A stretch of DNA of 63,189 nucleotides, filler included, from Rhabdomonas costata (Eukaryota): the NCBI GenBank assembly GCA_019059605.1. It is 30 parts of 30 records of this genome, joined end to end, with 100 filler letters (N's around TTAATTAATTAA, not from the genome) between each part and the next. Parts side by side here need not be neighbours in the genome. Positions count along the whole stretch, not along the records: positions 23,215 to 25,223 come from JAHMHO010006460.1; 29 more parts are not named here. The stretch is one strand, 5' to 3'. Shown here one piece after another: positions 23,215-25,181 of the stretch. The notes beneath the pieces were generated by a model, which was not told the origin of the DNA, searched no databases, and saw only the letters and a program-made list of their open reading frames with translations. The number at the start of each line of letters is the position of its first letter. The first letter of the stretch is position 1. A program made the position numbers and the translations under genes.

Positions 23215-25181
23215 GGGGTGGTTGGTCCGGGGACTCTGTGGGGTCAGCGGAGTCTTTGGGGTCTGTGGTTCCCTCGATACCCGCCGGCTGGCATTGCCTA
23301 CAGATACAGGGCAGCTGCCCAGCGAGGCCGCGGCATCTTTGGGGCACCCGGTGCACTGTGCGTCGTGCAGGCCTCCCACAAAGGCGGGCTGGAAGGTGCA
23401 GATCGAGCGCCCCACGAGCTCGGAGCTGGAGTAGCCCAACGAGGCGCAGAACTCGGGGCTGCAGGTGAGGATGGTTCCAGTGCAGGTCGTCGTAGCCCAC
23501 AGCTGCTCCTGTGTGGGTTTGATTTCCCACCGGAGAAAAATGAAGCCATGCCACTAGATAGCCTTTTCAACGCGCCGTCTGCGAAGACGCCTATTTCCAC
23601 CAACCCCGCTGTTCAAATGAATGCATCGTTTCAACACAAGTTCCATGGCAGATTATCTACTTAGGAATTATCGCTTGAGAGGTAAAAACGCGACGAGATG
23701 TAATGACACTCAATACGGTCTCTTTAATTCGAAAAAGGCTGAAAATTTCCAGGAAAAAACCATAAAGTCGCGCGTCATGAGAGAAAGCCATGTCACTGCT
23801 GGGCAGGATTCTGAATTGACCTGATTTGATCTGAGCTCTGGCCCCAAACAGTTCTGATCAACATCAGGCGATGCCTGAGTGTGTGCACGCTCTTCATGGG
23901 CGGGTCCCGGAGCTTGCATCCGTTCTTTTATGTCGGGACTTTGGAATGGAAAGCTTTTCCCGCGAATGCGTTTGTGGGCCCGAAATTTGGCGTTGGCGTA
24001 AAGTTGGCCCAGTAACTCTGTCAACTTGTGGTGCAGCACCAACTTTCAGTTATCTCGACTTCGTATTTTGTTCTTCTTTGTTTCTGCTCTCCCTTGAGCT
24101 GATCCGAGGATCACCAGAGTTTACCAAGGAGCCCTTCATATGAATAAGCAGGTGCGCGTAGCCGTGCGCGGGCAAGCATCAATATAAACGTGTTGACGTT
24201 TGCTTTGCATACGGCTTCCCCACTCATACCGGCAACAACAAGAAGGGACAACCTTCAGACACCCTCAATAGTTGCCCACTACCAAGGCCCAAATGAGGAG
24301 CTCATGCACACACCCGCACCCACACCCGCACTCCCCAAAACGCGCACCTCTCGCTGAAAGTCAATCTGAAATTCGTCATCTGTGGCCTTCTTGGCCGCAT
24401 TCAGCATTACAGTACTGATCATGCCGTAGACCTTCACCCAGGCAGACTTAGTCTCCTCCGTCATGTTGGGGCCGAGTGTACTCGAGAGCACCTTGATCAG
24501 GGCCTCCCCAACCAAAGGGTAGTGCAGAGCCGTCACGCCGTACTTGAGGTGTCGCCTGCGCACCAACCAGTCGCGCGACAACAAAAAAAGGGTCAAACAT
24601 AGGGCAAAAAACACCCAACGGCGTTTTTCAATTTACTTTCTCGGTCTCCCACATTTTATACATAAAGTAAGAGACGCAAAGCCAAGATACGGGGCACCAG
24701 CCACGCCCGTCCCCGACTCAATGCTGCCAAAAAGATTTATCATCAAAGTGGTACCTCACCTGGCCAAGGAAATAGTGCAGAAAAAGACGCATCTTTGGGA
24801 GGTGGGTGGTGGTGGTGCGAAAAGTATGGACCTGGCCAAGGCCTCCAGCGCAGGTATCAGCACCCGTAGGTCATCGAGCTTGCTGATCGCCAGCCCCAGC
24901 ATCGTCATTAGACGCTCCGCCTGCTTCTTCTGATCGGAAAAAAACATGCTCTTCACCCCGGGGTCGGAGTTGAACAGCTCCTCGTAGAAGGTCTGCCCCA
25001 GCTGCTGCATATCGGTCAGCAGCCCAAAGGATCGTCGCACCGTGATGATGTCGGCAACGCTCACTAATTCGAAGGCTTCGGGGGTCGATGCGGTTGCCGA
25101 GGTCGGGGACGTAGGCTCGTCGAAGCCTTGGACTCGCACGGGCTCCCGGCGGCCCCGGTTCACACTGACCAGTGCTCCCAT
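23215..25181 (-). CDS. Flavohemoglobin-like (M-family) globin fused to a PAS-like domain; 3' end runs off the contig
   Basis: GT-AG exons 25181-24832, 24555-24348 and 23508-23215 join in phase. Globin motifs: TFYEELF (TyrB10), SMFF (PheCD1), QAERLM (GlnE7), ARRHLKYGV (proximal HisF8), HYPLVGEAL, AWVKVYG. These are followed by TTTCTGTILTCSPEFCASLGYSSSELVGRSI, a PAS N-terminal motif. Confidence 0.88.

What the first reader, a model, noticed from the sequence alone, without database searches (positions are those of the whole stretch)
23215..25181. Spliced eukaryotic globin-PAS fusion with possible N-myristoylation: candidate membrane-anchored O2/NO sensor
Seen: three GT-AG exons splice in phase. 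They give an N-terminus MGALVS, a Ser/Thr/Pro linker, and a complete 3/3 globin with TyrB10/PheCD1/GlnE7/HisF8. A PAS N-terminal signature (TTTCTGTILTCSPEFCASLGYSSSELVGRSI) follows directly. Established: this residue set typifies flavohemoglobin/Vitreoscilla-type M-family globins, which are normally single-domain or fused to an FAD/NAD reductase. Globin-coupled sensors normally use S-family globins. MGxxxS is the N-myristoylation consensus. Inference: an M-family globin repurposed as input of a membrane-tethered (perhaps flagellar) gas or redox signalling protein. The output domain lies beyond the contig. An in-frame AG six nt upstream of the ATG could be a cis acceptor, in which case the ATG is internal.
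Basis: partly seen in the sequence, partly recalled or inferred. Interest (0 to 1): 0.8.

Follow-up and report, generated by a model that had tools for sequence, protein, structure and literature searches.

The report
Euglenid globin–PAS–adenylate cyclase gene fragment
This 2-kb contig holds the first three exons of a euglenid gene for a probably lipid-anchored haem sensor, a globin followed by a FixL-like PAS domain, whose relatives end in an adenylate cyclase, an undescribed variant of the known oxygen-sensing cyclases.

Summary
On the minus strand of one 2,009-base contig (23215-25223), three GT-AG exons join in frame. They give MGALVS, a Ser/Thr/Pro linker, a complete 3/3 globin and the N-terminal half of a PAS domain. 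Transcript-derived Rhabdomonas costata proteins use exactly these junctions. These are RCo018750 (233 of the first 235 residues identical) and RCo018742 (three substitutions and one 7-residue gap).

The missing output domain can now be named. RCo018742, the paralog RCo039255 and a complete 556-aa Entosiphon sulcatum ortholog read globin, PAS, helical linker, class III cyclase with adenylate-type specificity residues. All start MG...S.

The globin is of the flavohaemoglobin/Vitreoscilla type (best match Hell's Gate globin I), not the sensor (protoglobin) type.

New here: the PAS is FixL-like. It carries the HD.Y..RY helix motif, and the best structural matches of its model are FixL (Z 13) and DosP, so it may bind a second haem. 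The window's own copy lacks the 21 bases that follow that histidine.

I found no paper describing this architecture. The closest known are the Leishmania globin-adenylate cyclase (HemAC-Lm/OAC) and animal soluble guanylate cyclase. Verdict: real, reading supported, a new variant of a known kind. Function is inferred, not shown.

The parts
25188..25190 (-). In-frame TAG stop two codons upstream of the ATG.
   Evidence: Sequence ggTAGggagacATG. The stop-to-stop frame 24756..25187 begins GDMGALVS. Use as an acceptor was not tested.
25164..25181 (-). Codons for MGALVS, an N-myristoylation-type start. It is followed by Arg9, Arg11, Arg12 and Arg16.
   Evidence: The pattern MG-{EDRKHPFYW}-x2-[STAGCN]-{P} (recalled PROSITE rule) is met by 5 of 5 family proteins, against 4 of 269 other fetched proteins that start with M.
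24832..25181 (-). Exon 1 (350 nt): start codon, Ser/Thr/Pro linker, globin helices A to early F. It ends in phase 2.
   Evidence: tblastn with P0275 gives 116 of 117 identical.
24832..25052 (-). Globin domain, first part (residues 44-116). It holds Tyr66 (B10), Phe80 (CD1) and Gln87 (E7).
   Evidence: Pfam Globin profile positions 2-66. Alignment to HGbI 3ubc/3s1i.
24556..24831 (-). Intron 1, 276 nt, GT...AG.
   Evidence: It is absent from P0005 and P0275.
24348..24555 (-). Exon 2 (208 nt): rest of the globin and the start of the globin-PAS connector. It ends in phase 0.
24390..24555 (-). Globin domain, second part (residues 117-172). The proximal His119 (F8) codon is at 24551-24549.
   Evidence: Pfam Globin profile positions 68-117, 33.4 bits. 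RRH aligns with RRH of HGbI.
23509..24347 (-). Intron 2, 839 nt, GT...AG.
   Evidence: No Rfam match of note. No similarity to the other 29 contigs.
23215..23508 (-). Exon 3, open at the contig end (98 codons).
   Evidence: P0275 residues 186-291 align in one frame, 95 of 106 identical, with one 7-residue gap.
23362..23508 (-). N-terminal half of the PAS domain (residues 187-235: strands A and B, helices C to E, start of helix F). His234 is at 23367-23365.
   Evidence: PAS_9 and TIGR00229 partial matches. Profile A2 against PDB: 3bwl 3.3e-5, FixL 1d06 0.0019. Secondary structure of the P0275 model.
23361..23362 (-). Point where 21 nt (7 codons, GYMRKYS in RCo018742) are absent from the window's copy. 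This is directly after His234-Asp235.
   Evidence: The residues are present in P0275, P0006, P0276 and P0007. P0005 has a frame shift at the same point.
23215..23361 (-).
   Evidence: 47 of 47 residues identical to P0275 243-289. The matching region of the P0275 model is disordered (246-295).

Best explanation
The contig carries the 5' part (start codon and first three exons) of one copy of a euglenid gene family. The organism is Rhabdomonas costata or a very close relative.

The full products read, in order:
- an N-terminal Met-Gly start fit for N-myristoylation;
- a short disordered linker;
- a flavohaemoglobin/Vitreoscilla-type 3/3 globin;
- a FixL-like PAS domain with a long disordered insertion between helix F and strand G;
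- a long helix;
- a class III nucleotidyl cyclase with adenylate-type specificity residues.

What is shown:
- the exon structure;
- the domain order in near-identical and related transcripts;
- the globin type;
- the PAS fold prediction;
- the conserved N-terminal motif.

The mechanism is inferred. The protein sits at a membrane through myristate plus a second signal: a basic patch in Rhabdomonas, Cys3 in Entosiphon. O2, NO or CO binding at the globin haem, and possibly at a second haem on the PAS histidine, changes the PAS and linker-helix dimer. That in turn sets the activity of a homodimeric adenylate cyclase, so that gas or redox state is turned into cAMP. The logic is that of Leishmania HemAC-Lm and of animal soluble guanylate cyclase.

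The window's own copy lacks seven residues of PAS helix F. Its PAS may therefore not bind haem, or the copy may be a defective allele.
For: Exons and junctions.

Organism: the closest proteins are EukProt EP00906 Rhabdomonas costata RCo018750 and RCo018742. The RCo prefix is used for that species in PMC8219788.

Architecture:
- P0007 has Globin 53.8 bits and Guanylate_cyc 176.7 bits.
- P0006 has Globin 66.4 bits and Guanylate_cyc 73.1 bits.
- P0275 runs through the whole PAS into the first 23 cyclase positions.

Globin type: (3s1i TM 0.94, rmsd 1.1).

PAS:
- TIGR00229 scores 25.8 and 26.2 bits against a cut-off of 22.9.
- The AlphaFold model of P0275 has the order 2 strands, 4 helices, 3 strands, long helix.
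- The best structural matches of that part are FixL 8js5 (Z 13.0, 118 aligned), FixL 1dp6 (Z 12.9, 111 of 116) and DosP 9bgv (Z 12.0).
- The HD.Y..RY motif aligns with FixL.

Cyclase:
- The first 12 of 49 PDB sequence hits are adenylate cyclases.
- Lys of KVKTIGD and Asp of FDLFGD align with the specificity Lys and Asp of AC5 C2. Both metal Asp residues align with C1.
- PAS, linker and cyclase are colinear with a diatom FixL-like PAS-cyclase (34% over 316 columns, E 3e-50).

N-terminus: 5 of 5 family proteins fit the pattern, while residues 9-40 diverge.

Precedent: globin-AC in trypanosomatids (PMC7719234 and PMC4534343, passages). Myristoylated and palmitoylated globin X (PMC7475203, passage).
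Against: - No cyclase sequence is in the window itself.
- For this paralog only the first 23 profile positions of the cyclase are seen in P0275 (13.6 bits, below the cut-off of 21.9).
- The window's copy lacks the 7 residues after the PAS histidine. The transcript model P0005 is frame-shifted at the same point. This copy may be impaired.
- PAS matches of the window's exon 3 alone are below the curated cut-offs.
- PAS confidence in the models is middling. pLDDT is about 55-83 in P0275. The C-terminal half did not fold in the P0007 model.
- The Z values of FixL, DosP and non-haem PAS 3bwl lie within about 1 of each other.
- Nothing here shows haem binding, acylation, membrane location or ligand-regulated activity.
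- L. mexicana OAC was reported as cytoplasmic and flagellar, with no anchor described (PMC7719234).
Confidence: 0.78

Rival explanations
1. The window's copy is a damaged allele or paralog, a pseudogene in the making. It is expressed, but the PAS-cyclase part no longer works. At most, a myristoylated globin with a vestigial half PAS is made.
For: - A 21-nt gap removes the conserved GYMRKYS directly after the PAS histidine.
- P0005, the transcript model closest to the window at residues 195-196, has a frame shift at the same site and ends at 289 aa.
- At least three near-identical haplotypes exist: the window, P0005 and P0275.
Against: - The gap is in frame. The window's frame then stays open and identical to P0275 for 47 of 47 residues, up to two codons before the contig end.
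- The PAS N-terminal half is as conserved with the paralog as the globin: 84% against 72-86%.
- The one-base difference in P0005 could be an assembly error.
Confidence: 0.25
2. The PAS domain, not the globin, is the haem sensor that controls the cyclase, as in the diatom FixL-like PAS-cyclases. The globin is an accessory at the membrane, for example an NO dioxygenase or an O2 or ROS buffer like flavohaemoglobin-type globins or globin X.
For: - The PAS-linker-cyclase unit is colinear with a diatom protein that has no globin.
- The HD.Y..RY motif is present, and FixL and DosP are the best structural matches.
- The globin's nearest relatives are single-domain or tandem globins, not sensors.
- A protective role at the membrane is described for globin X (PMC7475203).
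Against: - The fusion of globin and PAS is kept in Entosiphon and in both Rhabdomonas paralogs.
- The three sensor globins form a clade with 100/100 support on a long stem, as expected after a change of role.
- A related globin fused to a signalling domain (HGbRL) exists.
Confidence: 0.2
3. The globin-cyclase architecture is an artefact of transcriptome assembly: chimeric Trinity contigs joined a globin mRNA to a PAS-cyclase mRNA.
For: All full architectures come from transcript models. P0276 and P0005 show that this transcriptome holds unspliced or shifted forms.
Against: - The genomic contig itself joins the globin exons to the PAS exon through a GT-AG intron.
- The same order is found in an independent species, as an ORF marked complete.
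- P0275 continues the window's exon 3 frame into the rest of the PAS and the cyclase.
Confidence: 0.03

Closest known systems
Leishmania HemAC-Lm / trypanosomatid oxygen-sensing adenylate cyclases (OACs)
   Same: Both have an N-terminal globin and a C-terminal class III adenylate cyclase in one chain, within Euglenozoa. Their reported role is O2-dependent cAMP synthesis (PMC4534343 and PMC7719234, passages).
   Different: - OACs are drawn with globin and AC only, no PAS, and are about 77 kDa.
- They were called a trypanosomatid innovation absent from Bodo saltans.
- No OAC appeared among the 120 and 150 best hits of the ortholog P0007, where only P0006 and P0007 had both globin and cyclase out of 272 proteins matched.
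- I could not fetch an OAC sequence, so common origin against convergence is untested.
- Sen Santara 2013 (PMC3801027) is not held.
Animal soluble guanylate cyclase (H-NOX, PAS, coiled coil, cyclase)
   Same: The order of parts is the same: haem sensor, PAS, long helix, class III cyclase. sGC chains are among the structural and sequence matches of the cyclase part. The architecture of sGC itself is recalled.
   Different: - The haem domain here is a globin, not H-NOX.
- The specificity residues are of the adenylate type.
- One chain holds all catalytic residues, so a homodimer is expected rather than an alpha/beta heterodimer.
- An N-terminal acylation motif is present.
FixL and DosP haem-PAS sensors
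   Same: The PAS part of the P0275 model matches FixL best (Z 13.0 and 12.9), then DosP (Z 12.0). The helix F motif HD.Y..RY aligns with FixL. An NCBIfam FixL model gives a local hit.
   Different: - The output is a cyclase, not a histidine kinase or phosphodiesterase.
- A 30-80 residue disordered insertion follows helix F.
- The window's copy lacks the seven residues after the histidine.
- Haem binding was not tested.
Hell's Gate globins HGbI and HGbRL (Methylacidiphilum infernorum)
   Same: These are the closest solved globins. HGbI: E 3.4e-26, about 43% identity by my count over 112 residues, TM 0.94, rmsd 1.1. HGbRL is such a globin fused to a signalling-type Roadblock/LC7 domain.
   Different: They are bacterial, with no PAS, no cyclase and no acylation motif.
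Globin X of animals
   Same: It is a 3/3 globin anchored to the membrane by Gly2 myristoylation and Cys3 palmitoylation (PMC7475203, passage). The Entosiphon ortholog starts MGC.
   Different: Globin X is a single-domain globin with no enzymatic output domain.
Diatom multi-PAS cyclase (Conticribra weissflogii KAL7466838.1 cluster)
   Same: Its FixL-like PAS, linker and class III cyclase are colinear with the euglenid proteins (34% identity, E 3e-50).
   Different: It has seven PAS repeats and no globin. It appears to be uncharacterised: named only 'hypothetical protein'.

Membership tests
3/3 globin, flavohaemoglobin/Vitreoscilla-type (M or F family; Pfam PF00042) | Full-length match to the globin profile | tested here: met
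   Exon 1 covers profile positions 2-66 and exon 2 covers 68-117 of 117. P0005 scores 64.5 bits and P0275 63.8 bits, against a cut-off of 22.
3/3 globin, flavohaemoglobin/Vitreoscilla-type (M or F family; Pfam PF00042) | Proximal His F8 and the Tyr B10 / Gln E7 distal pair | tested here: met
   FY, Q and RRH align with the same residues of HGbI 3s1i/3ubc. The helix names are recalled.
3/3 globin, flavohaemoglobin/Vitreoscilla-type (M or F family; Pfam PF00042) | Closer to flavohaemoglobins and related single-domain globins than to sensor-family globins | tested here: met
   - PDB sequence hits: HGbI, HGbRL, VHb, Hmp, neuroglobin.
- NCBIfam flavohaemoprotein local hit at 2e-18.
- No Protoglobin hit at E<=1.
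- Z 17.4-18.1 to flavohaemoglobins, against 12.9-14.5 to globin-coupled sensors and 11.3 to protoglobin.
3/3 globin, flavohaemoglobin/Vitreoscilla-type (M or F family; Pfam PF00042) | Binds haem | not testable with these tools
   Needs recombinant protein and spectra.
Globin-coupled sensors of the S family (HemAT type) | Sensor globin of the protoglobin type (PF11563) | tested here: not met
   No PF11563 match at E<=1 in P0005, P0006, P0007, P0275 or P0276. It works like a globin-coupled sensor but is not a member by globin type.
PAS domain (TIGR00229, PF13426) | Profile match above the curated cut-off | tested here: inconclusive
   The window's exon 3 alone scores TIGR00229 20.4 (cut-off 22.9) and PAS_9 18.5 (cut-off 27). 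The near-identical P0275 scores 25.8 and P0007 scores 26.2, both above the cut-off. Pfam PAS families stay below their cut-offs.
PAS domain (TIGR00229, PF13426) | Five-stranded sheet with the helices C to F between strands B and G | tested here: met
   P0275 model: strands 189-193 and 198-202; helices 204-210, 214-217, 222-225 and 229-245; strands 296-301, 307-317 and 320-327. 111 of 116 FixL residues align at Z 12.9. The C-terminal half lies beyond the window, and it did not fold in the P0007 model.
FixL-type haem PAS | Helix F histidine in the HD.Y..RY motif | tested here: not met
   In the window's copy the histidine (23367-23365) is present, but the following seven residues are absent. The motif is met in P0275, P0006, P0276 and P0007.
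FixL-type haem PAS | Strand G arginine that contacts bound O2, and actual haem binding | not tested
   An Arg in PREV aligns with REV of the diatom repeats, but no alignment to FixL covered it. The residue numbering is recalled.
Class III nucleotidyl cyclase (PF00211), adenylate type | Catalytic domain present | not testable with these tools
   It lies beyond the contig. Relatives: P0007 176.7 bits, P0006 73.1 bits, P0275 first 23 positions only at 13.6 bits.
Class III nucleotidyl cyclase (PF00211), adenylate type | Lys and Asp specificity pair, two metal Asp, Asn and Arg of the transition state | tested here: met
   Tested in P0007 only, by alignment to AC5 C1 and C2. The rule itself is recalled.
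Trypanosomatid OAC / HemAC-Lm | Orthology of the globin and cyclase domains | not tested
   No OAC sequence could be fetched. None was in the top 120 or 150 hits. None of 10 top cyclase hits looked up was kinetoplastid.
N-myristoylated proteins | Met-Gly start with small residue 3 and Ser 6 | tested here: met
   5 of 5 family proteins and the window fit the pattern. Acylation itself is not testable here.

The most novel reading that the evidence does not exclude
The family is a lipid-anchored, two-haem sensor. A flavohaemoglobin-type globin and a FixL-type haem PAS sit in tandem on one chain in front of an adenylate cyclase. One enzyme at the plasma or flagellar membrane then integrates two gas or redox signals, for example O2 at one haem and NO, CO or redox state at the other, into cAMP. 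That signal would steer aerotaxis of heterotrophic euglenids. The family arose independently of the trypanosomatid globin-cyclases, by placing a globin in front of an older haem-PAS cyclase.
Probability: 0.25. Interest if true: 0.8.

Novelty: new variant of a known kind. Interest (0 to 1): 0.6.

Why it matters
Haem-based gas sensors coupled to cyclic-nucleotide synthesis are known from a few cases: animal soluble guanylate cyclase, Leishmania HemAC-Lm and bacterial globin-coupled sensors. This family matters for four reasons.

- **A non-sensor-type globin as input.** Its globin is of the flavohaemoglobin type, not the sensor type, and it is joined through a FixL-like PAS. That gives a natural test case for how a classical globin can drive a PAS, helix and cyclase relay.
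- **Possibly two haem sites in one chain.**
- **Distribution.** It extends globin-cyclase fusions from parasitic trypanosomatids, where they were called a lineage innovation (PMC7719234), to free-living euglenids. The question of one origin or two is now testable.
- **Location.** The conserved acylation start suggests the sensor works at a membrane. In flagellates that points to control of motility.

The proteins are short (556 aa in Entosiphon) and should be easy to express.

Tried and rejected
- **Whole genome:** none is held for this window. The rest of the gene could not be looked for.
- **RNA reads for the junctions:** Junctions rest on transcript-derived proteins instead.
- **Other contigs of the window:** tblastn with P0005 and P0006 found no further exon. 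blastn found no repeat of this contig.
- **Intron after His-Asp:** I first read the break in similarity after GGLHD as an intron, either conventional GT at 23356-23355 or non-conventional. I dropped this when P0275 showed that the downstream frame is coding and that 21 nt are simply absent.
- **P0005's tail (residues 236-289):** it is the same DNA read one base out of frame, not a different C-terminus.
- **Rfam on the contig:** only a sub-threshold lncRNA match.
- **Earlier notes of this scan:** nothing on this genome, and two unrelated Naegleria cyclase notes.
- **ESM Atlas:** closed for this sequence.
- **Foldseek on both models:** it listed only cyclases or only globins among the rows shown, so it said nothing about the PAS. 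The wide VIA search did.
- **Globin tree:** 50 domains, at most three per protein. P0001, P0003, P0005, P0276, P0273 and P0294 were left out. The three euglenid sensor globins form one clade, but its place among the other groups is unresolved. No link to the Bodo, Papus or Sulcionema tandem globins was shown.
- **Literature:** searches for globin domain + PAS domain + cyclase + euglen (1 paper, a table only), for globin + euglenid (12 papers, none on this), and for haem/PAS/adenylate cyclase/globin/FixL/eukaryot (7 papers) found no description of this architecture. The R. costata paper has no occurrence of 'globin' or 'cyclase' in its main text. Its supplements were not read.
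Full report
**What the window is.** The 63,189-base window is a chain of 30 contigs of about 2.0 kb, each separated by runs of N around a ttaattaattaa linker. 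The finding sits on one contig, 23215-25223. Its neighbours in the window are unrelated DNA and give no context. No other contig of the window holds a further piece of the gene or any repeat of this contig.

**Checking the observation.** The gene is on the minus strand.
- The ATG is at 25181, and two codons upstream lies an in-frame TAG (25190-25188).
- Exon 1 (25181-24832) ends AG|GT in phase 2. Intron 1 is 276 nt.
- Exon 2 (24555-24348) ends GAG|GT in phase 0. Intron 2 is 839 nt.
- Exon 3 starts at 23508 and runs open to the contig end.
- Both introns are GT...AG and 49% G+C, against 55-66% for the exons. The joined frame has no stop.
- Pfam Globin matches exon 1 at profile positions 2-66 and exon 2 at 68-117, so the two exons abut in the profile.

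The decisive check is independent. A search of 5.8 billion proteins with exon 1 found two EukProt proteins. P0005 (RCo018750, 289 aa) is identical to the spliced translation at 233 of its first 235 residues. Its cluster mate P0275 (RCo018742, 388 aa) differs by three substitutions and one gap. Both run straight across the two predicted junctions.

**Organism.** The tools name these proteins as Rhabdomonas costata. The RCo prefix is that of the species' transcriptome paper, which also reports mostly conventional GT/AG introns and spliced-leader trans-splicing (PMC8219788; passages and the intron section). The window is therefore from this euglenid or a very close relative.

**The start.** All five family proteins begin at the homologous Met: MGALVS, MGSLVS and MGCTAS. 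The Entosiphon ORF is marked complete. With the in-frame TAG just upstream, the ATG is the likely start. The AG inside that TAG could serve as a spliced-leader acceptor, but this was not testable. The recalled PROSITE myristoylation pattern is met by 5 of 5 family members, against 4 of 269 other fetched proteins that start with Met. Residues 1-7 are conserved while residues 9-40 diverge.

A second membrane signal follows in each case, which is my inference. In Rhabdomonas it is three to four arginines within residues 8-16. In Entosiphon it is Cys3, the dual-acylation pattern reported for globin X (PMC7475203, passage). N-terminal sorting signals are also reported for trypanosomatid flagellar calcium-binding proteins (PMC10939215, abstract start only).

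**The globin.**
- With the whole domain (P0275), the best solved relatives by sequence are Hell's Gate globin I (3.4e-26), the globin of HGbRL (3.5e-21), Vitreoscilla haemoglobin (4.6e-16) and E. coli Hmp (5.7e-13), followed by neuroglobins.
- NCBIfam gives a local match to the flavohaemoprotein model.
- No Protoglobin match appears at E<=1.
- The modelled globin superposes on HGbI with TM 0.94 and rmsd 1.1 Å.
- In the wide structural search it scores Z 17-20 to classical globins and flavohaemoglobins. It scores 12.9-14.5 to globin-coupled sensor globins (AfGcHK, BpeGReg, GsGCS, HemAT, DosC) and 11.3 to protoglobin.

A review lists adenylate cyclases among outputs of sensor-family globins (PMC7475203), so the globin type is the unusual point here.

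A tree of 50 related globin domains puts the Entosiphon and the two Rhabdomonas sensor globins in one clade (100/100) on a long stem. Its placement among the other groups is unresolved.

**The output domain.** P0006 (RCo039255, 476 aa, cut at the C-terminus) and P0007 (Entosiphon sulcatum, 556 aa) carry Globin plus Guanylate_cyc, at 73.1 and 176.7 bits. P0275 continues the window's exon 3 frame through the rest of the PAS, a helix and the first 23 positions of the cyclase profile before its transcript ends.

In P0007 the Lys of KVKTIGD and the Asp of FDLFGD align with the substrate-specifying Lys and Asp of mammalian AC5 C2. Both metal-binding Asp residues align with C1. The first 12 of 49 PDB sequence hits are adenylate cyclases. 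The prediction is a homodimeric adenylate cyclase; the specificity rule is recalled.

**The PAS.**
- Exon 3 alone matches only the N-terminal part of PAS profiles and scores below the cut-offs.
- P0275 and P0007 pass TIGR00229, at 25.8 and 26.2 bits against a cut-off of 22.9.
- The PAS region of P0007 finds FixL haem domains as 7 of 12 PDB hits, best 1d06 at E 0.0032. GRSICTLQPTFVSALHDSYIQRY aligns to [23 protein letters not shown].
- A three-sequence profile finds PAS 3bwl (3.3e-5), MmoS, FixL (0.0019) and PERIOD.
- The histidine of this motif is, from memory, the proximal haem ligand of FixL.
- Among 300 fetched proteins, the motif HD.[YF]..[RKNH][YF] occurs only in this family and in a diatom cluster with seven such PAS repeats before a cyclase. 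P0007 is colinear with that cluster from the PAS to the end of the cyclase (34% identity, E 3e-50).

The second model (P0275) gave the PAS order: two strands, four helices, a disordered insertion (246-295), three strands, then a long helix. pLDDT there is about 55-83.

Against about 48,000 representative chains, the PAS part matches FixL best (8js5, Z 13.0, 118 aligned; 1dp6, Z 12.9, 111 of 116). DosP follows (Z 12.0), then the non-haem PAS domains 3bwl (11.8) and 3olo (11.4). These values are close to each other. A PAS fold is supported; a haem-binding PAS is a lead, not a result.

**The window's own copy.** Between Asp235 (23364-23362) and the next codon, the window lacks the 21 nt that encode GYMRKYS in P0275.

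P0006, P0007 and the diatom repeats all have these residues, so this is a deletion in the window's copy. It removes two turns of the helix that would hold the haem. P0005 has a one-base offset at the same site, and its last 54 residues are the same DNA read out of frame.

The window, P0005 and P0275 also differ at residues 20 and 195-196. At least three near-identical alleles or copies therefore exist. I cannot tell whether the short form is a working variant, a decaying copy or an artefact.

**How rare it is.** Three lines of evidence bear on this.
- In the word-based search of 5.8 billion clusters with P0007, only P0007 and P0006 among the 120 listed had Globin plus cyclase.
- In the exhaustive HMMER search of 1.84 billion representatives, 70,717 proteins matched. 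Re-scoring all fetched proteins with P0007 matched 272 of them, and only P0006 and P0007 matched in both the globin and the cyclase regions.
- No Euglena sequence and no trypanosomatid OAC appeared in these lists. OACs would score lower and may simply lie below the cut, and I could not fetch one for a direct test.

**Comparison with what is known.** The nearest described system is the Leishmania globin-adenylate cyclase HemAC-Lm/OAC. It is O2-dependent, and its loss reduces survival in hypoxia. It is drawn as globin plus AC without a PAS, and was called a trypanosomatid innovation absent from Bodo (PMC4534343 and PMC7719234, passages). In the order of its parts the family also mirrors animal soluble guanylate cyclase. 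It is not a member of the sensor-globin family by globin type, but it most likely works like one.

**Verdict.** It is a new variant of a known kind, and its function is inferred.

Noticed in passing
P0276 (RCo039254), not in the window: This isoform equals P0006 up to ...NALDDLLR and then runs into an unrelated Phe/Leu/Cys-rich tail. It looks like a retained intron inside the cyclase domain, which would mark an intron position in the paralog.
   Followed up: no
P0141 cluster (Conticribra weissflogii KAL7466838.1 and MMETSP transcripts): A 1,480-aa diatom protein has seven FixL-like PAS repeats, each with HD.[YF]..[RNH][YF] and REV..RKDG, in front of a class III cyclase. It appears to be uncharacterised.
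   Followed up: partly
P0126-P0132, P0153, P0198 (hits): Relatives of this globin occur as long tandem arrays of 5 to 14 globin domains in one chain. Sources are Bodo saltans, Sulcionema specki (plus cytochrome b5), Papus ankaliazontas (3,690 aa, plus two cytochrome b5), a sea urchin, Prorocentrum cordatum (plus ankyrin repeats) and metagenomes.
   Followed up: partly
P0256 and P0265 (ENA metagenome proteins): These have an N-terminal MCP signalling domain followed by two PF00042-type globins. They are further cases of non-sensor-type globins fused to a signalling module.
   Followed up: no
window 1-63189: The window is a concatenation of 30 contigs of nearly equal length (2,007-2,014 bases), so adjacency in it means nothing.
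   Followed up: yes
window 25182-25223 (minus strand, upstream of the ATG): A G/T-rich tract (GTTTTTGCTGTCTGGTTGCTTGGTTTGTGG) runs up to AGGTAG|GGAGAC ATG. It could be the tract in front of a spliced-leader acceptor.
   Followed up: no
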